Shown here: piece after piece, positions 4,869 through 46,282 of the stretch
Layout: each line of letters opens with the position of its first letter
Numbering within the stretch: the stretch's first letter is position 1
DNA from: Peptococcaceae bacterium
Lineage (GTDB): Bacteria > Bacillota > Dehalobacteriia > UBA4068 > JAAVYR01
Assembly: GCA_022791255.1 (NCBI GenBank)
Contig: JAAVYR010000004.1
Coordinates: 92,094 to 156,093, forward strand
Direction: 5' to 3'
Length of the DNA: 64,000 nt
The notes under the pieces: generated by a model
What the model was told of the DNA's origin: nothing
What the model saw: the letters and a program-made list of their open reading frames with translations, nothing else
Database searches by the model: none
Program-made: the position numbers and the translations under genes

Positions 4869-4872
4869 AATA

Positions 4873-15579: not shown

Positions 15580-15961
15580 GTTTTCTTCTCACTTCCTCTT
15601 TGCGTTTTACCACTTTTTCCTCTGAGTATATATATTTTACTTTTTCTCTCTTTTTCCTTTTCAAAACTACAATATCTTTTCGACAAAAAAAGCAGTCAAA
15701 TTTTGTCGTGCAATAAAATACCTGGTTAAGCTATGGATTGTCTGTCGAAAATTTATCTAATCAGGGGAAAAGTTTTTTTACCCAAACTGCAAAATTTCCC
15801 TAAATTTTACTTGTCCTTCTCTCTTACAGGAACAGCCCCAAACTGCAAAGTCGTAATCCGTCGAATTTTTATGGAAATTCCACTCTTTGGCCACTGCTTT
15901 TGCCATGCTAGAATAAAGATAAAGTAATACTTTATCATATTTTAACAAAGAGGATGACAGC

Positions 15962-16732
15962 ATGAATATCATAAAAAACACCGAAGAAGAAACAAACACC
16001 ACCGCCTTCTGGCACATGGACGACATTATCCCGGATATAGACTATCTTTATTTACAGCGGCTTCATGTCCGCCTGGGAGAAATGGTCTGGCATTTATATC
16101 ACAAACTACCCACGCTCTTGCGTCCAGCCGCTATCGGCACTTTCATTACCGAAGAGATTGCCAATGTCTATCAGGCCCTTGACCGCGCACATATATTTGC
16201 GCATTACCATGGCAGCAACAGTCAACGGCATGTAGAGGATATCTACTTTACCTGGCTCAAACAGCGAACCCTTACAAAGCTTTTTTTCCCTGCCATTGCT
16301 TACATCCTGCAGACACCGGCTACCGCTTTTTTCCCCTTAGAACCAGATATCTTCCTAAGCAAAGATTTTACTTTGCCGCAAAACCTACTTATTCATGTTC
16401 TAGACGGCACCCCGCTGCGGCTGGAAATCATCTATGATACAGAAAAAAGTTATCAAATACCGGAAGAACGCCTGGTAGCCGCAAAAAACTATTTAAAGAA
16501 AACCAGCTACAACACTCTTTTCTTATATCTGGATTTATTAGCAAATCAGGGCGCGCTACTGCCCCTGGAACAATTGACCTCAAGAGAAACAAAAGTCATT
16601 TCGCTGCAGACGGGACAGCAAAAGGCTACCGCTCTCTGTCAGGAAGATTTCATCTGGAACCTAGGAGAAATGCCCCCTATCTACCCAGAAGAAACCATGC
16701 AACTCCCCAAACTACAGCAAAAACAAGGATAG
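15962..16732 (+). CDS. Hypothetical protein.
   Basis: 256-aa ORF with RBS (AAAGAGGATGACAGC-ATG). No recognisable motif. Confidence 0.4.
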   Translation: MNIIKNTEEETNTTAFWHMDDIIPDIDYLYLQRLHVRLGEMVWHLYHKLPTLLRPAAIGTFITEEIANVYQALDRAHIFAHYHGSNSQRHVEDIYFTWLKQRTLTKLFFPAIAYILQTPATAFFPLEPDIFLSKDFTLPQNLLIHVLDGTPLRLEIIYDTEKSYQIPEERLVAAKNYLKKTSYNTLFLYLDLLANQGALLPLEQLTSRETKVISLQTGQQKATALCQEDFIWNLGEMPPIYPEETMQLPKLQQKQG

Positions 16733-16799
16733 ACCTCCCCCCTCCCACAGGAAACGGAAAAGCCAAGACGGGAAAAACCAAGAATTATGTAATTTTCTC

Positions 16800-16827
16800 T
16801 TGCCAATCCCGGGAAATGGATTATAAT
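16800..16827 (+). promoter_or_regulatory. Sigma-A promoter of pckA (TTGCCA-16-TATAAT).
   Basis: cTTGCCAatcccgggaaatggatTATAAT about 130 nt upstream of the pckA start. Confidence 0.5.
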
Positions 16828-16958
16828 TTAATTAGTAAGAAACTTTCTGCCTTACTGTGAAAAGAATAGTATTTTTCTCGGTGAGACAGATTTTTTCATA
16901 TACTTCTCTTTTATCAAAACACCAATAAAAATAAATTGTTTTGGAGGTAACATTTGTT

Positions 16959-18539
16959 ATGGTAACCAGAGAAAATTTAGCCCAATCCGGCATTGTCAAT
17001 GTAAAAAACATTTACAGCAACTTGTCTCCTACCCTTTTGGTAGAATACGCCCTTGCTCATGAAGACGCAGTGCTGTCCAGCACCGGGGCACTCAGGGTAG
17101 AAACAGGGAAATATTCCGGGCGTTCTCCTTTGGACCGTTTCATCGTAGATAGCCCTGCTATCCATGACAAGGTAGACTGGGGTGAAGTCAATCGTCCTAT
17201 CGACAAAGAAACCTATGAAAAATTATCCCACCGCTTAGAAGCATACTTAGCAGGGAAAGATGTTTTCGTATTTGATGGCTTTGTAGGCGCTGACGAAAAC
17301 CACCGCTTAAACATCCGCGTTATCAACGAATACGCTTGGCAAAACTTATTCGTACACCAAATGTTTATCCGTCCTACTGCAGAACAGTTGGCAGCTTTCG
17401 CACCAAACTTCACCGTCATTGCCTGCCCTGGCTTCCAAGGGGTACCGGAAGTAGACGGCACCCGTTCTGAAGTATTCGTAATCTTAAACTTCGACGAAAA
17501 GAAAATCATCATCGGCGGCAGCAGCTATCCTGGTGAAATCAAAAAATCTTGCTTCACCTTGATGAACTACTTCCTCCCAGAAAAAGGCGTATGCCCAATG
17601 CACTGCTCCGCCAATATGGGCGATGATAATGATACCGCCCTTTTCTTCGGTCTTTCCGGCACAGGGAAAACTACCCTCTCCGCAGACCCTAATCGTCATC
17701 TCATCGGTGACGATGAACACGGCTGGTCCCAAGACGGTATCTTCAACTTTGAAGGCGGCTGCTATGCCAAATGTTTAGACCTGACCCGGGAAGGAGAACC
17801 GCAAATCTTTGACGCCATCCGTTTTGGCAGTCTCTTAGAAAATGTTATCTTAGACCCAGAAACCAGAGTGGCCGATTACCATGATGATAAATTAAGCAAA
17901 AACACCCGGGCGGCTTACCCTATCGAATACATCCCAGGTGCTGTCATGTCTGGTAAAGGCACCCAACCAAATGCTATTTTCTTCTTAGCAGCGGACTCCC
18001 GAGGTGTATTGCCACCTATCTCTCGCTTAGACATTAACCAAGCTTGCTATCACTATCTTTCTGGCTACACCAGTAAAATGGCCGGCTTAGAACGAGGCAT
18101 CACTGAGTCCCAAGCTACCTTTTCCGCTGGCTTTGGTTCTCCATTCCTCGTGCGCCCTGCTGGAGTTTATGCTGACATCTTGAAAAAGAACATCGAAAAA
18201 TACGGTACCAAAGTATACTTAATCAATACTGGTTGGACTGGCGGCCCTTATGGAGTAGGGCATCGTATCCCACTGAAATACACTCGCTCCATGGTAACAG
18301 CAGCTCTTACCGGCGCCTTTGATAATATCGAATTTGTTAAGGACGAAGTATTTGGACTCTCTATGCCTACCAGCTGCCCAGATGTACCAGCTGATATCTT
18401 GAACCCAAGGAACACTTGGGATGACAAAGCAGCCTATGATGAAGCAGCTTACGCTCTCGCCGCCCTCTTCGTAGAAAACTTCAAAACATTAAAAGGTGTG
18501 GCACCGGAAATCATCGCGGCAGGTCCGAAAACCAAATAA
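16959..18539 (+). CDS. pckA: Phosphoenolpyruvate carboxykinase (ATP).
   Basis: GLSGTGKTTLS kinase-1a motif and full-length PEPCK-ATP architecture. RBS GGAGG-N8-ATG at 16959. Terminator at 18575-18617. Confidence 0.9.
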   Translation: MVTRENLAQSGIVNVKNIYSNLSPTLLVEYALAHEDAVLSSTGALRVETGKYSGRSPLDRFIVDSPAIHDKVDWGEVNRPIDKETYEKLSHRLEAYLAGKDVFVFDGFVGADENHRLNIRVINEYAWQNLFVHQMFIRPTAEQLAAFAPNFTVIACPGFQGVPEVDGTRSEVFVILNFDEKKIIIGGSSYPGEIKKSCFTLMNYFLPEKGVCPMHCSANMGDDNDTALFFGLSGTGKTTLSADPNRHLIGDDEHGWSQDGIFNFEGGCYAKCLDLTREGEPQIFDAIRFGSLLENVILDPETRVADYHDDKLSKNTRAAYPIEYIPGAVMSGKGTQPNAIFFLAADSRGVLPPISRLDINQACYHYLSGYTSKMAGLERGITESQATFSAGFGSPFLVRPAGVYADILKKNIEKYGTKVYLINTGWTGGPYGVGHRIPLKYTRSMVTAALTGAFDNIEFVKDEVFGLSMPTSCPDVPADILNPRNTWDDKAAYDEAAYALAALFVENFKTLKGVAPEIIAAGPKTK

Positions 18540-18716
18540 AAACTTACCACAAACTACATAAATTAAATAAAACCAACTACCTCTTACATATATTTCGTGT
18601 AAGAGGTAGTTTTTTTAGATCCTTCGCTTTCGCTCAGGATGACAGATGGTGCCACAAAGTACGAAAAAAATACGAACGACTTCTGACCGCCATACTTTTG
18701 CCTAAGCGGGAGTGGA

Positions 18717-18920
18717 TTATTTATATTTATCCATTTCCAGAATATGGTCTGTAGTAGTATGAAAAAACAGAGCCAGCTGCACCAAATGACAATTAGGAAG
18801 ATTTAACCTGCCAACTTCATAATTAGAATAAGTAGTCTGATGAATGCCTAAATAATCCGCTATTTGCTGTTGCGTAAGACCATGTTCTTTCCGTAGGGTA
18901 ACTAGCCGAGGATATGCCAT
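18717..18920 (-). CDS. Small XRE-family HTH transcriptional regulator (67 aa).
   Basis: MAYPRLVTLRKEHGLTQQQIADYLGIHQTTYSNYE is a Cro/C1-type HTH. Its start overlaps the stop of the upstream XRE gene by 19 nt (ATGGCATATCCTCGGCTAG). Confidence 0.6.
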   Translation of the reverse strand: MAYPRLVTLRKEHGLTQQQIADYLGIHQTTYSNYEVGRLNLPNCHLVQLALFFHTTTDHILEMDKYK

Positions 18921-19156
18921 AGGGGCTCGCCTTCTTTCTCCTCTGTAAAAAATTCGCTTAAGGAAATATTCAAAATCTGACAAAGTCTGACAATCGTCAG
19001 CATTTTAGGGTTACCGATGCCCTGCCGCATTCTCTTTAATGTGGTTTGAGACACACCAGAGAGGATGGATAGCTGAAACATCGTTAGATGTTGCTCTTTT
19101 CGTAAGGTCTCCACCCGTCTGCCGAGCCATAGGGTAAAATCATCAGTAGATATCAT
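18902..19156 (-). CDS. Small XRE-family HTH transcriptional regulator (84 aa).
   Basis: LRKEQHLTMFQLSILSGVSQTTLKRMRQG HTH. Divergent from the RHH gene. Confidence 0.7.
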   Translation of the reverse strand: MISTDDFTLWLGRRVETLRKEQHLTMFQLSILSGVSQTTLKRMRQGIGNPKMLTIVRLCQILNISLSEFFTEEKEGEPLWHILG

Positions 19157-19274
19157 AAAAATTCCTCCTAAAATATTACTCTAGTTGTGGAGCCAATTAG
19201 GAGCCATAACTACTTTTCAGTATAAGATAATGTCATAATGATGTCAAGATATCGCCAAAAAGGAGTCGATAAAA

Positions 19275-19451
19275 ATGAAAGACGATATGGTAAGATATTC
19301 ATTACGCATAGAAGGAGCTTTGTTAGATAAGTTAGGTTATGTGGCTGAATACGAAGGCAGGACAAAGAACAAAGAGATTGAACAGCTAATTAAGAAGAGA
19401 ATTGCCGACTTTGAAAAGAAATTTGGAGAGATAAAAGTAACAGAAGAATAA
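19275..19451 (+). CDS. Ribbon-helix-helix (CopG/Arc-like) small DNA-binding protein, 58 aa.
   Basis: RBS AAAGGAG-N9-ATG. RYSLRIEGALLDKLGYVAEYEGRTKNKEIEQLI is the typical RHH beta-strand/helix pattern. Below the 60-aa track cutoff. Confidence 0.55.
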   Translation: MKDDMVRYSLRIEGALLDKLGYVAEYEGRTKNKEIEQLIKKRIADFEKKFGEIKVTEE

Positions 19452-19857
19452 TATTCTGAGCGTTAGCGAAGAAAAGCTTTGATACTATTGCGGGGAGCCG
19501 CCGCCTGTTTGACGCGGGGAACGGCAAGTAGTGACGAGGCTGTTACTAGGTCAACCAGGCGGCAGTTTTGCTTCTTTTTCAAAAAGAAGTTAAAGACTTA
19601 CCAAAAGGAACTTACACCACTTGCCCAACTGTAAAAAGTACAATGTATATATTTAAGAGTTACTATCTACCTTTGACAACTGGGCAAATACGAATTATTT
19701 ACCTTGGGCTTGCTTTGCTTGTTCTTTTAAGAAAAGAACCAAAATCGCAATCTGGTTGCCTTTGCCTGGCAGCCTCGTCACTACCTAGTGCTCCCCGCGG
19801 CAAACAGATTGCCTTCCCCATTTACTAAAAGATCCTTCGCTTTCGCTCAGGATGACA
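19452..19857. repeat. ~400-bp structured repeat element, copy 1. It is bounded by imperfect inverted ~27-bp terminal repeats, an internal long stem and a central palindrome CTTCTTTTTCAAAAAGAAG. A ~130-bp associated tail runs to ~19990.
   Basis: Left end TATTCTGAGCGTTAGCGAAGAAAAGC; right end AAGATCCTTCGCTTTCGCTCAGGATGACA. About 85 % identical in inverted orientation to 30619-30927. The internal ORF (19568..19828) is not conserved as protein between copies. Confidence 0.7.
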
Positions 19858-20074
19858 GAAACCCTCCACTTGGTACAGAAGCAAAGCTCACTACTTCCTA
19901 GGCAAAAGTAACTGTTGGAAGTAGTATGTAGCCTTTTGTGCAGTGTAGCACCATCTGTGGCATCATCCGTGGCATTGTCTATCATCTATTGACAGTATAA
20001 TAGTTTAGCATTAAACTATTTATATCATAGGCAAATAACTCATATGATAGATTAATATGATAGGAGGCATTTTC

Positions 20075-20833
20075 ATGGGAAAATTAGACGGGAAAGTAGC
20101 CATCATTTCCGGTTCTGCCCAAGGGGTAGGCAAAGGGGTAGCAGAAGCCATGAGCCGTCATGGTGCAAAGGTGGTTATCTTAGATATTAACAAAGAAGGT
20201 GCAGAAAAAACTGCTGCTGAAATCGTAGCCGCTGGCGGAGAAGCCATCGGTCTGGGCTGTGACATTAGTCAAAAAGACCAAATCCAACAAGTCGTGGATA
20301 AAACAGTAGAAGTATTTGGTACCGTGGACATCATGGTGAATAACGCCCATGCGTCCAAGCAGAAGCCTTTTGAGACCTTGACGGAAGACGATTTTGCTCT
20401 TTCCTTTAACACCGGGTTCTGGGGCACCTACTATTTCATGCAAGCAGTATTTCCTATTTTCAAAGAAAAGAAAGCCGGCAAAATCATTAACTTCGGCTCT
20501 AACAGCAGCATCTTAGGCCACGCTTACCAAGGCGCCTATGCCGCTGCCAAAGAAGCCATCGGCGCCATCACCAAAGTAGCCGCTACCGAATGGGGCGTTT
20601 ACAATATCAATGTAAACATTCTCTGTCCTTTTGCCAATTCTCCCGGTATGGTAGCCTGGTCTCAAAACTTCCCGGAAGAATATGATAAGACCATCAGCCG
20701 TATCCCCCTGCGCCGAGTAGGCGATTGCAAGGACGATATTGGTGAAGTAGCTGCATGGTTAGGTTCTCATGAATCCGACTATGTGACAGGGCAAACCATC
20801 CTAGTAGACGGCGGCGCCCACTATGTCAGATAA
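20075..20833 (+). CDS. SDR-family short-chain dehydrogenase/reductase.
   Basis: GKVAIISGSAQGVGKG Rossmann motif, NNAH, YxxxK. RBS TAGGAGG-ATG at 20075. Confidence 0.8.
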   Translation: MGKLDGKVAIISGSAQGVGKGVAEAMSRHGAKVVILDINKEGAEKTAAEIVAAGGEAIGLGCDISQKDQIQQVVDKTVEVFGTVDIMVNNAHASKQKPFETLTEDDFALSFNTGFWGTYYFMQAVFPIFKEKKAGKIINFGSNSSILGHAYQGAYAAAKEAIGAITKVAATEWGVYNINVNILCPFANSPGMVAWSQNFPEEYDKTISRIPLRRVGDCKDDIGEVAAWLGSHESDYVTGQTILVDGGAHYVR

Positions 20834-21287
20834 GAGAAACAATCCCTCTGAAGAATTTGATGTTTTTGCCCTCATTCACAGCTATGAACAATTCTTCGGA
20901 AAATCTCATACCTATTGGCACAAACGATATAAAAACTACATCGGTACCAATCGAGTCCATGCTTTAGTGGAGCTAGACCGCACGCCACTTCTTAACCAAA
21001 AGGAGCTGGCAGAACGACTCTGCATCACGCCAGGGGCAGTTACCGCCATGACGGATGACTTAGAGAAAAAAGGCCTTATCGAGAAGGCATATAGCCCCAC
21101 CGACAAGCGAACCATTGAATTACGCATTACCTCAGAAGGGCAAGACCTGCTAGCAGAGACATTAGCAACGGCAAAAGTCTATGTAGAGGAAATCTGCAAT
21201 GTCCTTTCTCAAGAGGAAAAAAGGGCCCTTTTCGCTATCAATCAAAAGCTTTGTATGCATTTGGACCAATTTATTAAAAGCAAATAA
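20823..21287 (+). CDS. MarR-family transcriptional regulator.
   Basis: Winged-helix LNQKELAERLCITPGAVTAMTDDLEKKGLIEK..DKRTIELRITSEG. Overlaps the SDR stop. Terminator at 21293-21325. Confidence 0.75.
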   Translation: MSDKRNNPSEEFDVFALIHSYEQFFGKSHTYWHKRYKNYIGTNRVHALVELDRTPLLNQKELAERLCITPGAVTAMTDDLEKKGLIEKAYSPTDKRTIELRITSEGQDLLAETLATAKVYVEEICNVLSQEEKRALFAINQKLCMHLDQFIKSK

Positions 21288-21322
21288 ATAAAAAAGACAA
21301 CCGATTTGTTCGGTTGTCTTTT

Positions 21323-24161: not shown

Positions 24162-24509
24162 TTAGGAATGTTTTAAGTTTCTTTCTAAAGTATCTTTTGT
24201 TGCTTTTAATACATCTACAAGAATGCGAATATCATGATTGGAACATTGGGAAAAAATCTCTTGAGCCTCTTTATTATAAACAGGGAAAGAATGTTGTACA
24301 TTATCACAAAGAAGTTCGTCTACAGAAACAGAAAGCGCATTGGCAATCTTAATGATAACCGCTAAACTCATTCTGGCATTTCCTGTTTCGATATTGCTAA
24401 TATAAACAGTAGAAAGTTTCACTTGATTGGCCAATGCCTCTTGCGTCATTTTTAATTTTAATCGTGCTATTTTTATTCTTAAGCCAATCGCTACATAATC
24501 TATTGCCAT
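24162..24509 (-). CDS. XRE-family HTH transcriptional regulator (115 aa).
   Basis: LKMTQEALANQVKLSTVYISNIETGNARMSLAVIIKIANAL HTH. AT-rich upstream region. Confidence 0.7.
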   Translation of the reverse strand: MAIDYVAIGLRIKIARLKLKMTQEALANQVKLSTVYISNIETGNARMSLAVIIKIANALSVSVDELLCDNVQHSFPVYNKEAQEIFSQCSNHDIRILVDVLKATKDTLERNLKHS

Positions 24510-24705
24510 ACTGTTGCCTCTTTATTTGAAATGCTAACAGTATTTATTGTAATTTATTATAAAATTTATTTTAATAAATGATAAAAAGTAATTAAAATAA
24601 ATAATTTATATTTTTAAACTATAAGAATATTTCCCTTTATAATTTATATTCTGCTGCAAATAAAAAAGAGGAAGCGATAAAATACCGCTTCCTCTTTTTT
24701 ATCTT

Positions 24706-30182: not shown

Positions 30183-30422
30183 TTATAAATCCCTGAAAAA
30201 CTCATCAAAACTATCTACATGATAAAGTTCCTTTAATGCCAACAAGACGCTAACTTTAACACTATAACAACCTCGTTCCATTTGAGAAATTACTTCTCGA
30301 CTGATAGAAATATCTGCTAATTGCAACTTAGCAGCAACCTGTTCTTGAGATAAATTTGTTGCTTTCCGTAACCTTCTTAAATTATCACCAATAGAAATAT
30401 CTTGTTTAATGTTATTTGACAT
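30183..30422 (-). CDS. Small XRE-family HTH regulator (79 aa).
   Basis: RBS GGAG-N9-ATG at 30422. NLRRLRKATNLSQEQVAAKLQLADISISREVISQMERG HTH. C-terminal tail resembles that of the 18902-19156 XRE protein. Confidence 0.65.
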   Translation of the reverse strand: MSNNIKQDISIGDNLRRLRKATNLSQEQVAAKLQLADISISREVISQMERGCYSVKVSVLLALKELYHVDSFDEFFRDL

Positions 30423-30565
30423 AAAAATTTCTCCAATCTTTTTTTGGAATGTTTTCATTCCACTATTGATTTTAAACACTCACTCATGTTATTATTGGAA
30501 TGTATTAATTCCAATAATATTTTTTAGGAGAAATTTTTATCCAATGTCACCCTGAGGGAACCTTT

Positions 30566-31190
30566 AAGATCCTTCGCTTCGCTCAGGATGACAATCAGAA
30601 ACACCCACTACCTTTCCATGTCATCCTGAGGAACGCAGTGACAAAGGATCTTTTAGTATATGGGGAAGGCAATCTGTTTGCCGCGGGGAGCACTAGATGG
30701 TGACGAGGCTGCCAGGCAAAGGCAACCAGATTGCAAGTTTGGTTCTTTGCAGGCAAAGAACAGAAAAATGACCCAAAGTAAATAATTCGTACTTGCCCAA
30801 CTGTTAGAGGTAGATAGTATCTTTTAAATATATACATTGTACTTTTGACAGATAGGCAATTGCTACAAGTTTCTTTGAGTAAATCTTTAACTTCTTTTTG
30901 AAAAAGAAGCAAAACTACCGCCTGGTTATAATCTGCCACTTTTAAGGTAAGCAATGCTTAGTACTTCCAGACTGGGAAAAGTAAAATGTAGGCCAATATG
31001 TAAAAGTGGGGATATCTAGGCGGCAGGTCCCCGCCAATTAAAAGATCCTTCGCTTTCGCTCAGGATGACAGATAGTACCACTTTATACAAGGGAAACACT
31101 CACTGCTTCTAACAGAAGAGGAAAAGTAATTGCTAGTAGCTGTATGTAATTCTTTTGTAAAATGTGGCAGTATCTAGGATGAAAAAAACA
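30566..31190. repeat. Repeat element copy 2 (inverted relative to copy 1). Composite order: right-form hairpin repeat (30566-30593), inverted left-form (30619-30652), ~310-bp core homologous to copy 1 (30619-30927), second hairpin repeat (31042-31070), homologous tail (to ~31190).
   Basis: Reverse complement of 19568-19857 aligns at ~85 % to 30619-30927, including the CTTCTTTTTSAAAAAGAAG palindrome and TTGCCCAACTG blocks. The track ORF 30595..30954 lies inside it. Confidence 0.7.
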
Positions 31191-31221
31191 CACTATTTTT
31201 GCTTTAAGAGAGAGAAAAGTT

Positions 31222-31398
31222 ATGTCAGATTTTATCCCGAAAGGCTATACCAAACAGCAAATTACCATTCGGATAGATGAGCAAAAGCTGGAAAAGATAG
31301 ATAGAATAGCCGCTAAATTTAACCTAAGCCGCAGCGCCTTTGTAAATCAGTGTATCGACTATGCCCTCTCCATGATGGAGATAGGAAAGGAAAGTTGA
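31222..31398 (+). CDS. Ribbon-helix-helix (CopG-like) small protein, 58 aa.
   Basis: KQQITIRIDEQKLEKIDRIAAKFNLSRSAFVNQCIDYAL RHH pattern. Paralogous context to 19275-19451. Confidence 0.5.
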   Translation: MSDFIPKGYTKQQITIRIDEQKLEKIDRIAAKFNLSRSAFVNQCIDYALSMMEIGKES

Positions 31399-31478
31399 AT
31401 TGTCTCCTGTATAAGCAAAACGAACTAATCCCTAGGCCCAAAATAACTGCCGGAAGTAGTTCGTATTTCATATCCAGA

Positions 31479-39242: not shown

Positions 39243-40415
39243 CTACTTTACTATGCCACCGTCTATAATGATGGTCTTACCATAATGAGAAAAAATATTC
39301 ATCTTTGTATCTGTAATCAAAGTCTGAGTTTTCTCCCCTACCAATTTTAATAGCTGTTGGCACCGCTTCTCATCTAATTCTGAGGCTACATCATCTAAAA
39401 GCAGCACTGGATATTGACCGCTCTTCTGATGAAACAAATCAATCTCTGCTAGCTTCAAAGCAAGGGCCGCTGTCCTCTGCTGCCCTTGAGAACCAAATTG
39501 ACGAGCAGAAATACCATTAATGGTAATGGCAATATCATCTCTATGGGGTCCTACACCTGTAGTGCCTTTATACAAATCTTCCCGCCGATTTCTTTCTAAT
39601 GCCAGTTTTAACTGCTCTTTTAAAAAATCCTGCTGGGTACTGGAAGAAGTATGGTCTTTTTTCATCCTAGCTAAGGTTTGCCAAACTTCATCGTTTTGTT
39701 CCTTTTGACGGAAAAGAGCTGCTTCATAAGAAAGATGGATATATTCTTTACCATCGCTCAACAACCGATGAATTTTTTCAGCAAAGGGAAGGATATCTTC
39801 TAGTAGCTGTTGTCTTTTCAGTAAAATAGCACTACCATGACGGCTAAGTTCCTCGTCCCACACGGCAAGCATCTCGGGATCTGTCTCACCATAGGATTGC
39901 TTTAAATATTTATTTCGTTGTTCCACACTTTGCCGGTAAGCACTGTAAACAGGATAAAACTCCCCATCAAGCTGCAGTAGTTCCCTATTTAAAAACTTCC
40001 GACGAATAGCAGGACCGTCCTTTACCAGTGATAAGTCCTCTGGAGAAAAAATAACTGTCTGAAAATGTCCCAGCACTTGGCTGGTCTTTTTCAGGGCTTT
40101 GCCATTGATTTTCCATAATTTTCTTTTTTCCCTAGTATATCCCACAGACATCTCCAGGGGCGTCTCCTCACCAGAAAAAGGGTCTCTGCCCCTGACCCCG
40201 GCACATAAAAAAAAGTAGGGTTCCTGCCAGCGAATTAAATCTACATCGCTGCTATCCCGGTAAGAGCTAGCCAACGAAAAATAACAGCAAGCCTCTATGA
40301 GATTAGACTTTCCTTGTCCGTTTAACCCCGTAATTAGGTTAATATTTGGGTGCCATTGGATGAATTGCTCCTGATAATTACGAAAATTCCGCAGTAATAA
40401 AGACTCAATACGCAC
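39243..40415 (-). CDS. recF: DNA replication and repair protein RecF.
   Basis: GLNGQGKSNLIEA Walker A, LLLDDVASELD Walker B, conserved dnaA-dnaN-recF order. Confidence 0.9.
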   Translation of the reverse strand: MRIESLLLRNFRNYQEQFIQWHPNINLITGLNGQGKSNLIEACCYFSLASSYRDSSDVDLIRWQEPYFFLCAGVRGRDPFSGEETPLEMSVGYTREKRKLWKINGKALKKTSQVLGHFQTVIFSPEDLSLVKDGPAIRRKFLNRELLQLDGEFYPVYSAYRQSVEQRNKYLKQSYGETDPEMLAVWDEELSRHGSAILLKRQQLLEDILPFAEKIHRLLSDGKEYIHLSYEAALFRQKEQNDEVWQTLARMKKDHTSSSTQQDFLKEQLKLALERNRREDLYKGTTGVGPHRDDIAITINGISARQFGSQGQQRTAALALKLAEIDLFHQKSGQYPVLLLDDVASELDEKRCQQLLKLVGEKTQTLITDTKMNIFSHYGKTIIIDGGIVK

Positions 40416-40476
40416 CCTTTTTCACCTACTCTTTCTTAGACGCTTTCTCTTTTAAAAAAGTTTCTTTTTATTTTTA

Positions 40477-40692
40477 TTATTCTGTTACAACTTCATATTG
40501 GATATCTTCTACTGTTACTTGATCACCAACAAATATTTTTTTGCCAGGGGAAGTTTCCATACTGCCATTTACCAGAACCATACCATCTCTAATCATTTCT
40601 TTTGCCATGCTGCCATTTTCAGCGATACCGCACCACTTCAACAACTGCTGCAGCTGAATATATTCTGTATGAATAAATACTTTTTCCATCAT
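40477..40692 (-). CDS. yaaA: S4-domain RNA-binding protein (YaaA/RlbA-like).
   Basis: 71 aa, IQLQQLLKWCGIAENGSMAKEMIRDGMVLVNG. Position between dnaN and recF. Confidence 0.7.
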   Translation of the reverse strand: MMEKVFIHTEYIQLQQLLKWCGIAENGSMAKEMIRDGMVLVNGSMETSPGKKIFVGDQVTVEDIQYEVVTE

Positions 40693-40835
40693 GATGCCTC
40701 TTTTATCTCATAAATTTATGTTCTAATTATCTTTATCATATGTTATCTATTATATCAAATATCTATCTTAAAAAAAACTACCTCTTATCCCATTGCTTTG
40801 CATAAGAGGTAGCTTATTTTACTTTTATTTAATTC

Positions 40836-41936
40836 TTATCCAATCCTTACAGGCAGGATTAAATAAAGAAAGTTTTCATCAGCGTCGCTGGTAATAATCC
40901 CCGGTGTTACAGGCCCGGTCAGCTCCATATAAAGAGAGTCGCCTTCTATATTTTTTAATACTTCTAAAATATACTTGCTATTATAAACGACTTCTATCTC
41001 TTCCCCTTGATGAAGGATAGACATATGACCATCAATGGTACCTAAATCCGGTGCGCTAGCATGGAAACCCAATAAATCTTGACCAAAATGAAGCTTAATC
41101 ACACCTGCCCCTTCTCTTGCTACCACAGAAGCCCGTTCCATTTCTTGTAAGAAACGGCTGCTTTGAATGACGCTTTTCGTAATAAAAGCCTCTTTTTTCG
41201 GAATTACTTGATTATAATCAGGATATTGTCCATTAATCACCCGGGAAATAAAGGCAACTTGTCCTGTCCGGAAATAAATCTGATTTTTAGAAATAATCAA
41301 ATCAATCTGTTGATCCTCCGCTGCAAAGCGAGCAATCTCTTGCATAGTCTTAGCAGGAACGATAACCTTGCCCACACCTTTTCCCTGCCAAGGAATGACT
41401 TGTTTTGCCAAACGGTGGGTATCTGTAGCCACCATGACCAACTGACCTTCTATAAAATCTAACAACACCCCAGTAAAAACAGGTCTTGCTTCATTGGTAG
41501 AAGCAGCAAAAGCAACTTGTCTTACAATTTTCTTAAAAAGAGGTGCCGGAATAGAGCCTTCAATATCCCCCTGTACTTCTGGAAAGGCTGGAAAATCCAC
41601 TGGGTCCATACCACGGAACACAGTCTCAGAATTTTCATAGCTGACTGTCAAATCAAATTCTCCTGTTTGAGCTAAAACAATAGTACCTTGGGGTAAAAAA
41701 CGCACTAAATCTAAAAAGTTTTTACCTGGAACCACTACTTTCCCAGAAGCTTCTACTTCTGCAGGAATACAACACTCGATAGCTAACTCTAAATTTGTAG
41801 ATTGTAAGAAAAGACGGTCATCCTCTGCCCACAATAAAATACCAGATAACACTGGCAAAGTATTTTTACCAGAAACAGCACGGCTTACTGTCTGTACGCC
41901 ATAAAGCAAATCTTCCATCTGACAAGAAACTTTCAT
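40836..41936 (-). CDS. dnaN: DNA polymerase III beta sliding clamp.
   Basis: 366 aa, three-domain beta-clamp pattern, immediately downstream of dnaA/oriC. Confidence 0.9.
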   Translation of the reverse strand: MKVSCQMEDLLYGVQTVSRAVSGKNTLPVLSGILLWAEDDRLFLQSTNLELAIECCIPAEVEASGKVVVPGKNFLDLVRFLPQGTIVLAQTGEFDLTVSYENSETVFRGMDPVDFPAFPEVQGDIEGSIPAPLFKKIVRQVAFAASTNEARPVFTGVLLDFIEGQLVMVATDTHRLAKQVIPWQGKGVGKVIVPAKTMQEIARFAAEDQQIDLIISKNQIYFRTGQVAFISRVINGQYPDYNQVIPKKEAFITKSVIQSSRFLQEMERASVVAREGAGVIKLHFGQDLLGFHASAPDLGTIDGHMSILHQGEEIEVVYNSKYILEVLKNIEGDSLYMELTGPVTPGIITSDADENFLYLILPVRIG

Positions 41937-42488
41937 ATTCTTAAAATCCTTTCTCTCTGATCCTCAAAACAACCCAAATATCTCTATATTCTATTTTACC
42001 TATTTTTAACAAGAAATAAAATACTTTTCTATTTTTTCTGTTTATTGTTTTTTTTCATAGGTTTTTTCTAACATATAATCATCCTCTTAATCACAATGTT
42101 ATCCACATTATCCACAATCTTTGTGTATAACTAAAAGCCCTTATAAACCAAGAATTTTTTTTGTTCTCATGAAAATGATTTTCAGAAAAAAACTGTCATA
42201 ACATGGTCTTTTAATTAGTTATCCACAGTATCTTTGTGAATAATCCAAGTGGATAGTGGAATATTTTGATAAGTAGGCGACCTAATAAAAAAACTGTGAA
42301 CAAATGTGGATAAATTGGTGATGATTTTAAGATTATCCACTGACAAAAAAATGTATAAATGACCTGCAACACACTATAATAAAGGGGTTATCCACAAAAA
42401 ATTGCTACCCTTATTATTAATACTATTTAAAATAATAATAAATATAATAATATGCACAATCATAACAAAATAGAAGAAAACAGAAAAA
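41937..42488. other. oriC segment between dnaA and dnaN: DnaA-box cluster plus AT-rich DNA-unwinding element.
   Basis: TTATCCACA or 1-mismatch boxes at ~42098, 42108, 42228, 42305 (TGTGGATAA), 42342 and 42388. 60-bp AT tract (AATAATAATAAATATAATAATATGCACAATCATAAC) at 42405-42480. Confidence 0.75.
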
Positions 42489-43892
42489 TTATTTGTTAAT
42501 TAAATCAATAAGTTCATTAATAGCTCTGTTTAAATTTTCGTCGGTTACTTTTTCTGCAGAGATTTTTTCATAAGCATGCAGCACAGTTGTGTGGTCTCTG
42601 CCGCCAAACTCTTGTCCTACTTTTTGCAAAGGTTCTTCTAAAATATCCCGACAAAGATACATAGCAATCTGACGAGGATAAGCGATGGCCCTATCCCGAC
42701 GTTTATTTTTAAAATCTTCTACTTTTAAATGATAATAGTCTGCCACTACTTCTTGAATGGTATCAATGGTAACGGGCTTTTTGGGTTCATCAGGTAAAAG
42801 GCCTTTTAAAGCTTCACCAGCAATGGCTGGTGTAATCGTATTCAAACAATTAATATGTGCATAATAAATCACTTTGTTTAAAGCGCCTTCTAATTCTCGA
42901 ATATTAGAGTGAATGCGGGAAGCAATGAAAAATAACACTTCATCGGAGACAATAATATTTTCCCGTTGGGCTTTATATTGTAAAATAGCAATTCTCGTTT
43001 CTACATCCGGTGGCTGGATATCGGTAATCAGACCCATTTCAAAACGGGAACGCAGCCGTTCTTCTAAGGTAGGAATATCCTTGGGTGGACGGTCGCTGCT
43101 TAAAATAATCTGTTTGCCAGACTCAAAAAGGCTGTTAAAAGTATGGAAAAATTCTTCCTGGGTACTTTCTTTTCCAGAAATAAATTGGATATCGTCGACT
43201 AAAAGCGCGTCAGCATTCCGATATCTATTTTTAAAACTATGGGCTTTACCTAAACGAACAGAGGCAATAAATTCATTGGTGAAAGTTTCGGTAGAAACAA
43301 ACACTACATTAAAACCTGGATTATGTTGAATAAGATAGTAGGCTATGGCTTGCATCAGGTGAGTTTTACCAAGGCCGGAGCCACCATAAATAAAAAGAGG
43401 ATTATATGCTCTGGCTGGGCGCTCTGCTACTGCGTGGGCTGCAGCATGGGCAAAACGGTTTGAGTTGCCTACTACGAAAGTATCAAAGGTATATCTAGGA
43501 TTTAATTTATAATTATTGCCAGCAGAGATAAAGGAGTCAGTTTGTATTTCCTCTTCCTCTTCTTTTGGTTGGGCAAAATGATTGCTAAAAGAATTGCTTT
43601 CTCCACCTGTAAAATCAGTAGGAGAAGGCGTTTCTTCCCATTGATTTTCATTTTGATGAAAGGATATAAATAAGGGGTCTAGTTCTTCTCCTGATACAGT
43701 ACAAAGGGCATTCTTTACAATATGAGACATATTTTCTTCCATCCAGTCGCGGGCTACTTCTGTAGGCATGGCAATAATAAATTGATTTTTTTGCCGTGTG
43801 ACAGATAGAATAGAACGAAACCACCGTTCGTAACGGTCTTCTGGTATTTGTTGTCTAATAATGGTTTGGGCCTTTTGCCAAATATTGCTCAT
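42489..43892 (-). CDS. dnaA: Chromosomal replication initiator DnaA.
   Basis: 467 aa with AAA+ Walker A (GGSGLGKTHL), sensor motifs and C-terminal DNA-binding domain. Confidence 0.95.
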   Translation of the reverse strand: MSNIWQKAQTIIRQQIPEDRYERWFRSILSVTRQKNQFIIAMPTEVARDWMEENMSHIVKNALCTVSGEELDPLFISFHQNENQWEETPSPTDFTGGESNSFSNHFAQPKEEEEEIQTDSFISAGNNYKLNPRYTFDTFVVGNSNRFAHAAAHAVAERPARAYNPLFIYGGSGLGKTHLMQAIAYYLIQHNPGFNVVFVSTETFTNEFIASVRLGKAHSFKNRYRNADALLVDDIQFISGKESTQEEFFHTFNSLFESGKQIILSSDRPPKDIPTLEERLRSRFEMGLITDIQPPDVETRIAILQYKAQRENIIVSDEVLFFIASRIHSNIRELEGALNKVIYYAHINCLNTITPAIAGEALKGLLPDEPKKPVTIDTIQEVVADYYHLKVEDFKNKRRDRAIAYPRQIAMYLCRDILEEPLQKVGQEFGGRDHTTVLHAYEKISAEKVTDENLNRAINELIDLINK

Positions 43893-44200
43893 AGGTAGGA
43901 CGCCTCTTTCTAATTGTTGAACTGACTATTTTTTTATAGTTTTTGAAATAATTGCTGAAATGTAGGATGTAATGCTTATTTATGACGATATAGATACATG
44001 AAAAAAAATTTTGTTATAACTAAAGAAATTTGTTAAAAAAAGAAAAATGGGATTTTTTGGATAATTTGGATAATGTGTATAAGTTGTGTATAAAATAAAA
44101 AATTGCCCACTAAAAGTAAGAAAAGTACCTTGTAGATAATAAAATTTATTGGAAATAAAATTTATCCACAATTTGTGGATAAATTTTTAAATTTATAAAT
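43893..44200. other. Upstream oriC DnaA-box cluster (dnaA promoter region).
   Basis: Inverted perfect pair TTATCCACAattTGTGGATAA at 44162-44182 plus TGGATAAT repeats at 44058-44075. Confidence 0.7.
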
Positions 44201-44491
44201 GCAGTTTCATAATAACAGAGAGACTTGTCAAATTCAAGTAGATATTTTTTCCTACTATTACGATTATAATAGGGATAATCCAAAGATAATGGAACAATAA
44301 AAGGAAAAAAGTCTATAAAAGATATCTTACATATTTTCCAGGGAATGGCTTGACATTTCTACTTAAAAAAGATATACTTTTTTCGTTATACTGGGAGTAG
44401 ACCAGGGGGTTGTCTACAGCTTGCCGGCAGATGGATAGCTGTAAGGGCCCTTGTGGTAACAAATAAGAAAAAAGAGAGGAGAGATTGAAAA

Positions 44492-44626
44492 GTGAAACGC
44501 ACTTATCAACCAAAAAGAAGAGTTCATAAAAGAGTTCATGGCTTCTTGTCCAGAATGAGCAGCAAATCCGGTAGAAACGTATTAAAAAGAAGAAGAGCTA
44601 AAGGCAGAAAAGTTCTTTCTGCTTAG
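44492..44626 (+). CDS. rpmH: 50S ribosomal protein L34.
   Basis: GTG start with [56 protein letters not shown]. Below the track size cutoff. Confidence 0.9.
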
Positions 44627-44755
44627 CCAGATGACGAAGGCCGCCTTCCGCGGTCTTTCTTTCTATTTATTATAAATTTATATTTTAAAGCCAATAGAAA
44701 GAAACATCTATAAAAAGTAATCATAAAAAAGTAATGATATGATAAGGTTCTATTT

Positions 44756-45112
44756 ATGTTAAAAAAAACATACCGTTTAACCAGAAGAAATGACTTTCGC
44801 CGCGTCTATGGCCGGGGAAAGTCAGTGGCGAATTACAGTATGGTATTGTATGTGGCTCCCAGCAGAAACCAATCTATGCGAATTGGTTTTTCTGTTTCTA
44901 AGAAAATAGGCAAAGCGGTTGTTCGCAATCGAGTAAAAAGATTGATGAGAGAGGCTTCTTTTCATTTGCTTCCCTCCTTTTCTCCTTATAAAGATTATGT
45001 CTTTATTGCGCGCAATGGCATCAAAGAACAAAGCTTGTTAGAAATAGAAAAACAAATGGCGTCTTTGTTAAAGAAAATCAAAGAAAACAAGAAAATAGAA
45101 CAAAGTAGATAA
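44756..45112 (+). CDS. rnpA: Ribonuclease P protein component.
   Basis: KTYRLTRRNDFRRVY..GKAVVRNRVKRLMRE. Conserved rpmH-rnpA order. Confidence 0.85.
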   Translation: MLKKTYRLTRRNDFRRVYGRGKSVANYSMVLYVAPSRNQSMRIGFSVSKKIGKAVVRNRVKRLMREASFHLLPSFSPYKDYVFIARNGIKEQSLLEIEKQMASLLKKIKENKKIEQSR

Positions 45113-45146
45113 AGTAGATAAAATGGGTATGTTTTTTTAAGAGGGT

Positions 45147-45365
45147 TTGATATTTGTGAAAAAATTGTGTATGGGTTTGATTTTGTTTTATCAAAAAGCC
45201 ATTTCGCCTTTATTGCCTGCACGGTGCAGATTTTATCCTACTTGTTCTCAATATGCTTTAGAAGCAGTGGAAAAATATGGGGTATGGAAGGGCGGTTGGA
45301 TGAGTGTGAAGCGCATTTGCCGTTGTCATCCATGGTCGCGCGGCGGCTATGACCCTGTAAAATAA
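45147..45365 (+). CDS. yidD: Membrane protein insertion efficiency factor YidD.
   Basis: [32 protein letters not shown] signature. Confidence 0.85.
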
Positions 45366-45397
45366 GTGAGGTGAACCGCATTTTTTGCGGAAAATAA

Positions 45398-46255: not shown

Positions 46256-46282
46256 GACATTGGTAAAGAAAGAGGGAAAAAG

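What the first reader, a model, noticed from the sequence alone, without database searches (positions are those of the whole stretch)
30183..31398. Second, rearranged copy of the XRE/RHH + structured-element cassette
Copy 2 is inverted relative to copy 1, lacks the long closing stem, and ends near 30927.

It is flanked by three copies of the 28-nt hairpin repeat. Two of these form a head-to-head pair at 30566-30652 separated by 25 nt.

An RHH gene (31222-31398) and an XRE gene (30183-30422) flank it as in locus 1. The C-terminal tails of the XRE proteins (..SLSEFFTEE vs ..SFDEFFRDL) suggest the regulators were duplicated together with the element. The mosaic arrangement points to recombination or transposition activity of the repeat family.
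Basis: seen in the sequence. Interest (0 to 1): 0.6.

Follow-up and report, generated by a model that had tools for sequence, protein, structure and literature searches.

The report
Mobile palindromic repeat beside regulator genes
The "second cassette" is a complete second copy of a ~330-375 bp non-coding fold-back repeat, wedged between short REP-like repeats, which appears, disappears and flips next to unrelated small regulator genes in a narrow group of uncultured Peptococcaceae-like bacteria; it is an undescribed member of an ordinary class (intergenic mosaic/mobile repeats), not a duplicated regulator-plus-RNA cassette.

Summary
The similarity is real. Window 19553-19857 aligns inverted to 30927-30619 (312 columns, 85.6%). 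Three details of the finding are wrong.

- Copy 2 is full length (30662-31034). Only the tip of one hairpin was swapped for about 88 nt of other sequence.
- The "long closing stem" is a by-product. The element is two inverted ~125-nt paralogous units around a central hairpin.
- The XRE and RHH proteins of the two loci are not paralogues.

Each unit carries two local hairpins. P1 has 13 bp, 100% Watson-Crick in 8 units, with 4 compensatory pairs. P2 is perfect in 12 units.

Related contigs show the following:
- single units alone at a site where another MAG has the full element;
- an empty site;
- the element in the opposite orientation downstream of an RHH1 homologue at the same PEPCK-linked locus (a REP pair lies between them);
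- a third, mosaic copy elsewhere in the same metagenome, whose homology stops exactly at flanking REP repeats.

There is no Rfam, phage, plasmid or viral match, no conserved ORF and no strand signal.

Best reading: a lineage-restricted, non-autonomous fold-back/mosaic repeat of the REP/BIME/MITE kind. No transposase was found. One oddity is unexplained: every known site adjoins a small XRE or RHH regulator gene. Interest is low to moderate.

The parts
18617..18646 (+). REP-like 28-30 nt repeat, (+) orientation, at the left edge of locus 1. It sits just after the PEPCK terminator hairpin and about 70 nt 3' of XREa.
   Evidence: Exact 26-mer match; repeat family D1.
18717..19156 (-). Two overlapping XRE-family genes of locus 1: XREa 18717-18983 and XREb 18902-19156.
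   Evidence: Pfam HTH_3 at 1.8e-10 and 3.9e-8. NCBI name MCI8335907.1 for XREb.
19275..19451 (+). RHH1, a 58-aa Arc/TraY-like ribbon-helix-helix gene. It is syntenic with PEPCK in related organisms.
   Evidence: Weak Pfam Arc match at 0.0096. Named 'TraY domain-containing protein' MCI8335908.1. PEPCK-linked in L041; in L031 it follows two XRE genes and an unidentified 442-aa ORF that I assume to be PEPCK.
19452..19480 (-). Degenerate REP in (-) orientation, abutting the RHH1 stop codon.
   Evidence: Fuzzy match. Aligns with the intact REP(-) of locus 2 and L046.
19490..19819 (+). Element copy 1 (type 1). Unit A is 19490-19612 (+), the central hairpin H3 about 19622-19689, and unit B 19819-19697 (-).
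   Evidence: (I3).
19830..19859 (+). REP (+) flanking copy 1. It is joined to the B end through the conserved spacer ATTTACTAA.
   Evidence: (D1).
30183..30422 (-). XRE2 gene (79 aa).
   Evidence: Pfam HTH_31 at 2e-10; MCI8335920.1.
30445..30545 (.). Divergent control region of XRE2. It has operator-like palindromes (TGGAATG-N4-CATTCCA; TTGGAAT-N7-ATTCCAA) and promoter-like hexamers on both strands.
   Evidence: consensus matches only.
30546..30652 (.). REP cluster: degenerate REP(-) 30546-30571; REP(+) 30567-30592; 27-nt spacer; REP(-) 30620-30652. The last two form a REPIN-like doublet.
   Evidence: The doublet folds at -36.7 kcal/mol, z = -7.1. The same arrangement is seen in L046.
30662..31034 (-). 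Element copy 2 (type 2), inverted relative to copy 1 and full length.
- Unit B: 30662-30785, sense on +. P1 is 30669-30682 with 30721-30734; P2 is 30742-30761.
- H3: 30793-30859.
- Unit A': 31034-30865, sense on -. Its P2 is 30881-30899. Its P1 base is 30915-30925 with 31016-31026.
30928..31015 (-). Alternative hairpin tip of unit A' (about 88 nt). It replaces the 'TTTGACGCGGGGA..GTGACGAGGCTG..GTCA' interior of copy 1. The same variant occurs in L046.
   Evidence: Alignments A1 and A4. It forms its own stem, CCACTTTTA/TAAAAGTGG.
31043..31072 (+). REP (+) flanking the A' end of copy 2.
31222..31398 (+). RHH2 (58 aa, CopG family).
   Evidence: Pfam RHH_1 at 5.9e-5; MCI8335921.1.
31413..31465 (.). 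Copy of a second small hairpin repeat (ACGAACTA..TAGTTCGT), between RHH2 and the convergent 207-aa gene. It is related to 19879-19930.
   Evidence: 77% over 53 nt.

Best explanation
The feature is one member of a small, lineage-restricted family of non-coding fold-back repeats.

ANATOMY
- The building block is a ~125-nt unit with two local hairpins. P1 is a 13-bp stem with a conserved T.C mismatch, enclosing the motifs CGCGGGGA and GACGAGGC. P2 is a perfect 7-9-bp stem.
- A full element is two such units in inverted orientation (paralogous types A and B) around a central hairpin, H3.
- In this genome the element sits between inverted copies of an abundant 28-nt REP-like repeat.

BEHAVIOUR
It behaves as selfish or structural repeat DNA. 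It is gained, lost, flipped, halved and recombined between copies at intergenic sites.

INFERRED MECHANISM
It moves or is copied as a REP-bounded segment. Either a trans-acting enzyme elsewhere in the genome acts on the hairpins (RAYT / IS200-IS605-like single-strand transposition would fit the lack of target duplications), or REP-to-REP recombination and gene conversion do it. When transcribed with its neighbours it would simply add stable hairpins to the RNA.

SHOWN VERSUS INFERRED
- Shown: the anatomy, the compensatory changes, the presence/absence/orientation polymorphism, the REP-delimited homology, and the lack of paralogy of the neighbouring regulators.
- Inferred: the mobilising enzyme and any RNA-level effect.

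Copy 2 is therefore an independent, complete insertion between XRE2 and RHH2. It is not a rearranged duplicate of the locus-1 gene cassette.
For: (1) Complete second copy with a swapped hairpin tip.

(2) Third copy in the same metagenome sample at an unrelated site, L046:1645-2017.
- It is 87% identical to locus 2 over 517 nt.
- Homology starts and stops exactly at the outer REPs.
- It is a mosaic: the tip is like copy 2, and the rest is 92.7% like copy 1.

(3) Fourth copy in another MAG, L008:3940-4265, 82% identical, with no REPs of this family in the 8 kb read.

(4) The L008 site in relatives. Where the neighbouring XRE is 98% identical, the site holds only a solo unit: B-type in L037, A-type in L039/L040, and a B-type with a replaced tip in L038 (that contig ends after the unit). 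In an 88% relative (L034-36) it holds only REPs.

(5) Empty site in L033. There the sequence reads GATACTATT-AATTTTCCC-ATATAC. The window has GATACTATT-[330 nt]-ATTTAC.

(6) In L045 the element lies downstream of an 80% RHH1 homologue at the PEPCK-linked locus, after a REP pair, in the opposite orientation.

(7) Metagenome contigs of these organisms repeatedly end inside the REPs or the element, as expected for multi-copy repeats.

(8) Local hairpins are maintained by compensation.
- P1 is 100% paired in 8 units; 4 of its 13 pairs change on both sides; there is no G.U.
- P2 is perfect in 12 units with 3 stem variants.
- Arm-to-arm pairing is only 64-69% Watson-Crick, with G.T and A.C about equal.
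- Both strands fold with similar z-scores.
This is the pattern of DNA palindromes, not of a one-strand RNA.

(9) No Rfam family matches. There is no conserved reading frame, and only one database 'protein' overlaps it, which is L046 itself.

(10) The REP family is dispersed: 13 core matches in 64 kb against 0.17 expected.

(11) XRE(-)/RHH1(+) pairs of more distant relatives carry neither units nor REPs.
Against: - No transposase or recombinase was found in the window. The Y1 test used query sequences recalled from memory, so it is weak. Neighbouring genes are housekeeping.
- No target-site duplication is seen.
- Only three copies are known in this organism and few elsewhere. A GTDB-wide pattern scan found one true hit and a JGI metagenome scan none. 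Both scans needed exact matches to 20 fixed bases, and the JGI set evidently lacks the source sample.
- All five known sites adjoin small DNA-binding regulator genes, four of them XRE. The window has only 4 XRE-type ORFs. This looks non-random, and this model does not explain it.
- Conserved loop motifs plus compensated stems could reflect selection for a function.
- The central hairpin has more G.U pairs on one strand (7 against 2).
Confidence: 0.6

Rival explanations
1. The ~125-nt unit is a functional structured RNA module: a three-way junction of a closing stem, P1 and P2, with conserved CGCGGGGA / GACGAGGC loops. It would be carried on or next to XRE/RHH regulator genes and would act in cis (leader, 3' stabiliser or attenuator) or as an sRNA or protein decoy. 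Full elements would be sense/antisense pairs of it.
For: - Compensatory changes in P1 and P2.
- The three solo or first units at the XRE-ECF site (L037, L039, L038) are co-directional with both flanking genes.
- In locus 2, a promoter-like site at 30466-30495(+) would transcribe unit B in sense towards RHH2.
- In L037, L039 and window unit B the 5' GGGG and 3' CCC ends can close a junction.
- The element recurs next to XRE/RHH genes at 5 of 5 sites.
- H3 has 7 G.U pairs on one strand against 2 on the other.
Against: - No Rfam hit, even at E<=10.
- Unit folding z-scores are modest (-1.5 to -3.3) and similar on both strands.
- P1 and P2 contain no G.U pair at all.
- The 'conserved' loop motifs are dispensable: the tip is replaced in copy 2, L046 and L038, and altered in L045.
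- The neighbouring regulators belong to no single family.
- The orthologous intergenic region works without it in L034-36, L031 and L033.
- There is no dedicated promoter or terminator, and the orientation relative to RHH1 differs between the window and L045.
Confidence: 0.17
2. This is the first reader's model: a segmental, inverted duplication of a functional cassette (XRE + RHH + structured element), followed by rearrangement and truncation of copy 2.
For: - Both loci hold a leftward XRE, a rightward 58-aa RHH and the element, within about 1.3 kb.
- REP plus about 40 nt of flank are also similar: 18617-18687 vs 31043-31113, 77%.
Against: - The element copies are 86% identical in DNA, yet the proteins are unalignable (XRE) or 23% identical (RHH). 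DNA similarity stops at the REPs.
- The gene order relative to the element differs between the loci.
- Copy 2 is not truncated.
- The closest relative of copy 2's flank structure is L046, at a site with different genes.
- The RHH1 module exists without the element in L031, L033 and L047-54.
Confidence: 0.03
3. The element is a double-stranded DNA regulatory platform. Its nested perfect palindromes (P2 CTTCTTTTT-C-AAAAAGAAG; GTTCTTTT-N3-AAAAGAAC; H3 arms) would be operators for the adjacent dimeric XRE/RHH proteins.
For: - 19-21-bp perfect palindromes are invariant across copies.
- Dimeric HTH/RHH genes are always adjacent.
Against: - The palindromes are the same at loci whose regulators are unrelated.
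- XRE2 has its own, different operator-like palindromes next to its promoter.
- The element lies downstream of genes in locus 1, L008 and L046, not in promoter regions.
- Regulators of the same families lack it elsewhere.
Confidence: 0.05
4. The two inverted copies matter chiefly as a recombination substrate. They would mediate reversible inversion of the 10.8-kb segment between them (19.8-30.6 kb), or the centre of each element would be an invertible switch.
For: - Two copies lie in inverted orientation 10.8 kb apart, with a 105-nt stretch at 95% identity.
- The relative L033 has RHH1 and RHH2 adjacent, so rearrangements have occurred between these loci.
Against: - No contig shows the inverted configuration; all break at the repeats.
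- The L033 arrangement needs breakpoints at gene starts outside the elements, not inside them.
- The central segment is collinear with the arms in all four full copies.
- No recombinase gene lies nearby.
Confidence: 0.05

Closest known systems
REP / BIME mosaics and REPIN-RAYT systems (Enterobacteria, Pseudomonas; PMC3116915, PMC3337134)
   Same: - An abundant ~28-nt palindromic intergenic repeat.
- Inverted REP doublets with a short spacer that fold as one hairpin (30567-30652).
- Mosaic combinations of REPs in alternating orientation with other conserved motifs.
- Lineage-specific REP variants (GGATC here, GAATC in L034/L041).
- No target duplications.
- Homology of the duplicated segment ends at REPs.
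   Different: - The large element is not itself made of REPs, and in L008 it occurs without them.
- It is low-copy.
- No RAYT gene has been seen.
- The organism is a Firmicute MAG, outside the groups where REPINs are characterised.
ERIC / IRU elements of Enterobacteria (127-bp imperfect palindromes; from my own knowledge)
   Same: - An imperfect palindrome in intergenic, probably co-transcribed DNA.
- No coding capacity.
- Size variants created by insertions or replacements at fixed internal positions.
- Patchy presence at orthologous sites.
- Unknown mobilising mechanism.
   Different: - Three times longer.
- Built of two two-hairpin units plus a central hairpin.
- The units also occur alone.
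- No sequence relationship was tested or is expected.
Bacterial MITEs and modular repeats (Correia elements of Neisseria, BOX and RUP of S. pneumoniae; from my own knowledge)
   Same: - Short, non-coding and dispersed.
- Long inverted terminal regions that can fold back.
- Modular make-up, as with boxA-B-C.
- Presence/absence polymorphism between strains.
   Different: - No target-site duplication.
- No cognate IS with matching ends has been found.
- The terminal 'repeats' are ~125-nt diverged paralogous units (64-69% complementary) rather than short TIRs.
IS200/IS605-derived PATEs (palindrome-associated transposable elements; from my own knowledge)
   Same: - Hairpins at both ends in the same orientation, if the REP(-)...REP(-) bounded segment of locus 2 / L046 is taken as the mobile unit.
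- No TIR requirement and no target duplication.
- Single-strand hairpin recognition would explain stems kept by Watson-Crick compensation.
   Different: - No TnpA(Y1) or TnpB gene nearby.
- Cleavage-site and guide tetranucleotides are not identifiable.
- Locus 1 lacks the second REP(-).

Membership tests
MITE | Short (<~600 bp) and non-coding | tested here: met
   The element is 326-374 bp. ORFs across it lose frame between copies. Only one predicted 'protein' in 5.8 billion overlaps it, and that is another copy.
MITE | Terminal inverted repeats | tested here: met
   The element matches its own reverse complement over nearly its full length (nhmmer E=1.6e-39; I3). The arms are only 64-69% complementary.
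MITE | Target-site duplication flanking each copy | tested here: not met
   The flanks of copy 1, copy 2, L008 and L046 share no direct repeat. The filled-versus-empty comparison (window vs L033) shows none.
MITE | Autonomous IS with the same ends in the genome | not testable with these tools
   Only 64 kb of the MAG is available, and no transposase is in it.
REPIN-RAYT system (applies to the 28-nt repeat, not the large element) | Abundant short palindromic REP, mostly intergenic | tested here: met
   13 matches of the 12-nt core in 64 kb against 0.17 expected. Copies are listed.
REPIN-RAYT system | Inverted REP doublets with a spacer, folding as one hairpin | tested here: met
   30567-30652 folds at -36.7 kcal/mol, z = -7.1. 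The same doublet occurs in L046 and L041-45.
REPIN-RAYT system | Single-copy RAYT (Y1 HUH transposase) gene in the genome | tested here: inconclusive
   tblastn of IS200 TnpA and E. coli RAYT sequences (recalled from memory) against the window gave nothing below E=0.09. The rest of the genome was not available.
REPIN-RAYT system | The large element itself is a pair of REPs | tested here: not met
   Units A and B share no similarity with the REP. The L008 copy has no REP of this family in the 8 kb read.
Curated structured RNA family (Rfam 15) | Match to a covariance model | tested here: not met
   No hit at gathering score in the window. No credible hit at E<=10 on either locus, nor at E<=1 on a solo unit.
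Structured non-coding RNA (generic) | Base pairs supported by compensatory change | tested here: met
   P1 has 13 pairs, 100% paired, 4 with changes on both sides. Covariation is 0.294 against 0.129 in shuffles (0 of 500 reach it), and slid controls pair in <=40% of cells. P2 is perfect in 12 units. The units are paralogues and relatives, so this shows hairpin maintenance; it does not show that the hairpin acts as RNA.
Structured non-coding RNA (generic) | One functional strand (G.U asymmetry, own promoter/terminator, consistent orientation) | tested here: inconclusive
   - z-scores are equal on both strands.
- G.T against A.C counts are 7-11 against 9-15.
- H3 has 7 against 2 G.U.
- There is no dedicated promoter or terminator.
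Invertible promoter switch (inverton) | Central segment found in both orientations between fixed inverted repeats; recombinase nearby | tested here: not met
   The centre is collinear with the arms in all four full copies. No recombinase gene adjoins either locus.
   XRE2 vs XREb gives no alignment. XRE2 vs XREa is 24% over 45 aa. RHH1 vs RHH2 is 23% over 31 aa. The element copies are 86% identical in DNA.

The most novel reading that the evidence does not exclude
The ~125-nt two-hairpin unit is a new mobile structured-RNA (or single-strand DNA) module. Its biology would be tied to small XRE/RHH DNA-binding regulators. For example, it could be an RNA partner, decoy or antitoxin-like component of XRE-RHH switch modules, spreading as solo units or sense/antisense pairs. 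This would explain why all five independent sites adjoin such genes, and why its stems are kept by compensation while its conserved loops (CGCGGGGA, GACGAGGC) persist in two diverged paralogue types.
Probability: 0.1. Interest if true: 0.65.

Novelty: new member of a known kind. Interest (0 to 1): 0.3.

Why it matters
- Annotation. The ~800-bp gap between MCI8335920 and MCI8335921, and the ~600-bp gap after MCI8335908, are repeat DNA. They are not missed genes or a novel riboregulator.
- Assembly. The repeats explain why metagenome assemblies of these organisms fragment here.
- Biology. It adds a Firmicute example of REP/BIME-like mosaic repeats with an unusual modular fold-back member. The clean filled, empty, solo and flipped states could be used to work out how such elements move.
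- Open point. The one feature that could make it more than ordinary is the consistent adjacency to XRE/RHH genes. This is worth a genome-wide test.

Tried and rejected
- Rfam at gathering score and at E<=10 on both loci, and at E<=1 on a solo unit: nothing credible.
- Exact-pattern scans of viral contigs with four different blocks: 0 hits.
- blastn against the plasmid and phage collections: no match.
- GTDB genome scan with CGCGGGGA-N10-GTGACGAGGCTG: one true hit (L008) and one chance hit.
- JGI metagenome scan with the arm-consensus pattern: 16 hits, all chance. That collection evidently lacks the source sample.
- The protein-coding reading. ORFs across the element share about 45 codons and then lose frame. 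A search with the 119-aa ORF found only another element copy.
- Riboswitch or leader for the ECF transporter of L008. Rejected because the orthologous spacer in L034-36 has only REPs, and the unit also sits in unrelated contexts.
- oriT/sso reading, prompted by the 'TraY domain' name of RHH1. Rejected because L008 and L046 have no RHH, RHH1 occurs widely without the element, and no relaxase or Rep gene is present.
- Strand assignment from folding energy. The strand that reads GGGGAAGGCAAUC... folds 12-14 kcal/mol better in all three copies tested (copy 1, copy 2, L008), but so do its shuffles, so the z-scores are equal.
- Literature search for the REP sequence string: only unrelated primers.
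- Searching other strains for an inversion of the 19.8-30.6 kb segment. Every contig ends in the repeats, so the question stays open.
Full report

Yes, in its core. Window 19553-19708 is 87% complementary to 30772-30927, and 19733-19837 is 95% complementary to 30644-30748. As one gapped alignment, 19553-19857 matches 30927-30619 over 312 columns at 85.6%.

The 26-nt core of the short repeat, GATCCTTCGCTTTCGCTCAGGATGAC, occurs exactly at 18618, 19831 and 31044. Variants lie at 30567-30592 (+) and 30620-30652 (-), and a degenerate one at 30546-30571 (-).

Pfam confirms the gene calls. XRE2 is 30183-30422(-) and RHH2 is 31222-31398(+). In locus 1 there are two XRE genes (18717-18983 and 18902-19156, both -) and RHH1 (19275-19451, +).

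(a) Copy 2 does not end at 30927. The reverse complement of 31016-31034, GCGGGGACCTGCCGCCTAG, is the 5' end of the element as in copy 1. A profile built from three copies aligns to 31036-30651 over model positions 3-345. What differs is about 88 nt (30928-31015). This stretch replaces the interior of one hairpin and forms a hairpin of its own.

(b) The regulators are not co-duplicated.
- XRE2 vs XREb gives no BLASTP alignment.
- XRE2 vs XREa is 24% identical over 45 aa.
- RHH1 vs RHH2 is 23% identical over 31 aa.
- The element copies are 86% identical in DNA.

(c) The gene order differs. In locus 1 the element follows RHH1. In locus 2 it separates XRE2 from RHH2.

3. ANATOMY

Copy 1 (19490-19819) folds as one giant hairpin on either strand (-129 and -143 kcal/mol, z about -8). 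That picture is misleading.

Relatives carry half-elements alone (see section 4), which shows that the building block is a ~125-nt unit. The full element is unit A (sense), then a central hairpin H3, then unit B (antisense). Each unit has two hairpins.
- P1 is a 13-bp stem, GCAATCTG-TTTGCC / GGCAAC-CAGATTGC in B-type units and GCCGCCTG-TTTGAC / GTCAAC-CAGGCGGC in A-type units. It has an invariant T.C mismatch.
- P2 is a perfect 7-9-bp hairpin.

Across eight units, P1 is 100% paired. Four of its pairs change on both sides (AU/CG, AU/GC, UA/CG, and one position with CG/AU/UA). None of 500 shuffles reaches the observed covariation score, and slid controls pair in 40% of cells or fewer. P2 is perfectly Watson-Crick in 12 units, with three stem variants.

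Arm-to-arm complementarity is only 64-69%. G.T and A.C mispairs are about equally frequent. So the 'long closing stem' is simply what two diverged inverted paralogues look like when folded.

No stem pair in P1 or P2 is G.U. Folding z-scores are the same on both strands. Only H3 shows a mild bias, with 7 G.U pairs on one strand against 2 on the other. There is therefore no convincing strand signature.

4. RELATED SEQUENCES

The window comes from an NCBI MAG labelled Peptococcaceae bacterium (MCI8335907/908/920/921).

- One GTDB genome, an uncultured Clostridia MAG, has a full copy at L008:3940-4265. It is 82% identical, has no REPs around it, and lies between an XRE gene and an ECF-type transporter gene.
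- In contigs whose XRE is 98% identical to that of L008, the same spacer holds only a single unit. L037 has a B-type unit. L039 and L040 have an A-type unit. L038 has a B-type unit with a replaced tip, but that contig ends after the unit. The flanks are identical in all of them.
- In an 88% relative (L034-36) the spacer holds three REP-like repeats and no unit.
- Downstream of an 84% RHH1 homologue, L033 shows an empty site. It reads GATACTATT-AATTTTCCC-ATATACAAAAGGATCC, where the window has GATACTATT-[330-nt element]-ATTTACTAAAAGATCC.
- In L031 (RHH1 89%) a second small RHH-like ORF and a terminator follow RHH1 instead of the element.
- In L041-45 (RHH1 80%, also next to PEPCK) a REP doublet and then the element follow RHH1, in the opposite orientation.
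- A third copy from the same sample as the window's contigs sits in a different gene context, L046:1645-2017. Its homology to locus 2 (87% over 517 nt) begins and ends exactly at the outer REPs, giving REP(-), element, REP(+), 27 nt, REP(-). It is a mosaic: the variant tip is like copy 2, and the rest is 92.7% like copy 1.
- More distant homologues of RHH1 (75%) and of the L008 XRE (72%) have neither units nor REPs.
- Contigs from several samples end inside the REPs or the first conserved block of the element, as expected of repeats.

5. WHAT IT IS NOT

- It matches no Rfam family.
- It has no similarity in the phage, plasmid or viral collections.
- It does not encode a conserved protein.
- No transposase, recombinase, relaxase or reverse transcriptase lies near either locus. 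The neighbours are PEPCK, an SDR, MarR, isochorismatase, tRNAs, TrkAH, a TRAM methyltransferase, a PHP protein and NDK.

6. MOST LIKELY EXPLANATION

The element is a lineage-restricted, non-autonomous fold-back/mosaic repeat of the REP/BIME/ERIC/MITE kind.

Shown:
- its modular anatomy;
- hairpins maintained by Watson-Crick compensation on both strands;
- filled, empty, solo and flipped states at orthologous sites;
- recombination between copies;
- duplication of a segment delimited by REPs.

Inferred:
- The mode of spread. The absence of target duplications, and the same-orientation REP hairpins at both ends of the locus 2 / L046 segment, fit single-strand, Y1/RAYT-type mobilisation in trans. 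REP-to-REP recombination or gene conversion would fit equally.
- Any RNA-level consequence, such as extra stable hairpins in read-through transcripts. The REP on its minus strand reads as a hairpin with a GAAA loop followed by CUUUU. It often lies 3' of minus-strand genes.

I give this reading 0.6.

7. WHAT REMAINS ODD

All five independent sites adjoin small DNA-binding regulator genes.
- Window locus 1: XREa, XREb and RHH1.
- Window locus 2: XRE2 and RHH2.
- L008: an XRE.
- L046: an HTH_26-type XRE.
- L041-45: RHH1.

The window has only four XRE-type ORFs, at three places, among about 55-60 genes. If each element lands in one of about 55 intergenic regions, of which about 6 flank an XRE locus, the chance is roughly 0.1 per site. 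This is my own back-of-envelope estimate. Four XRE-adjacent sites out of five is therefore unlikely by chance.

Possible reasons are an insertion preference for the terminator-rich, REP-rich spacers around such stand-alone genes, tolerance of insertions there, or a real functional link. The last is the basis of the 'novel case' (probability about 0.1), and of the RNA-module rival (0.17).

8. COMPARISON WITH KNOWN SYSTEMS

The 28-nt repeat passes the descriptive tests for REP/REPIN: it is abundant, and it forms inverted doublets that fold as one hairpin (PMC3116915, PMC3337134). The RAYT gene could not be assessed.

The large element meets the MITE criteria of size, non-coding nature and inverted ends. 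It fails the target-duplication criterion.

It resembles ERIC in being a long imperfect palindrome with internal insertion variants. It resembles BOX and BIME in being modular. The ERIC, BOX and BIME comparisons rest on my own knowledge.

It is not a member of any curated RNA family. I file it as a new member of a known kind.

9. VERDICT

Recombination or transposition of a repeat family is supported. A duplicated regulator cassette, truncation of copy 2, and a closing stem are not. Interest is 0.3.

Noticed in passing
window 39243-47017: The window contains the chromosomal origin region. The genes are recF (39243-40415 -), dnaN (40836-41936 -), dnaA (42489-43892 -), yidC (45398-46255 +) and jag (46283-47017 +). 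The cumulative GC-skew minimum is near 44 kb, and GC falls to 0.34 at 42-46 kb. The two element copies lie about 13 and 24 kb to the left of dnaA.
   Followed up: partly
window 2400-21300: Nearly all large ORFs here are on the + strand, which is head-on to a fork leaving the origin at about 44 kb leftwards. GC skew stays negative but weakens to about -0.03 at 4-12 kb, and AT skew rises to +0.26. This could mark an old inversion.
   Followed up: no
window 4621-4720: A REP copy is followed by a tandem array of its 3' half (GTTCAGGATGAC alternating with ATTCAGGATGAT, period 36). It lies just upstream of a tRNA gene at 4794-4865.
   Followed up: no
window 19879-19930, 31413-31465, 18693-18714: This is a second small hairpin repeat family (ACTACTTCC..GGAAGTAGT / ACGAACTA..TAGTTCGT). 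Copies lie at the right edge of locus 1, after RHH2, and, inverted, left of XREa. Together with the REPs it gives locus 1 ~70-nt inverted flanks (18642-18714 vs 19958-19889, 71%).
   Followed up: partly
window 30445-30545: Operator-like palindromes TGGAATGTTTTCATTCCA and TTGGAATGTATTAATTCCAA lie between promoter-like hexamers on both strands, upstream of XRE2. This is probably the real XRE2 control region. The REP/element mosaic separates it from RHH2.
   Followed up: partly
L033:2200-2758: In a relative, RHH2-like (-) and RHH1-like (+) genes are adjacent and divergent. They share the ~118-nt intergenic region that in the window lies between XREb and RHH1. The leftward gene is exchanged exactly between its ribosome-binding site and its ATG. 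This suggests cassette-like swapping of small regulator genes.
   Followed up: partly
L047-L054; window 18902-19451: A divergent XRE(-)/58-aa RHH(+) gene pair recurs in many Clostridia contigs, in varied contexts (next to peptidase M3, PEPCK and others). The RHH family has more than 1000 database members, the best 120 of them at 66-100% identity. The function of this two-gene module is unknown.
   Followed up: no
L008:4648-4944; L037, L038, L040, L041-44: A 97-98-aa DUF6809 gene sits divergently upstream of either the XRE (L008 group) or RHH1 (L041 group). It takes the place that XREa/XREb occupy in the window.
   Followed up: no
window 2194-2301 (-): A TPP riboswitch (Rfam RF00059, 69.4 bits).
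   Followed up: no
window 24165-24521 (-): This is the fourth XRE-type ORF in the window (HTH_3, 8e-13) and the only one with no element or REP next to it. The flanking spacers are AT-rich, with several short inverted repeats (24553-24702).
   Followed up: no
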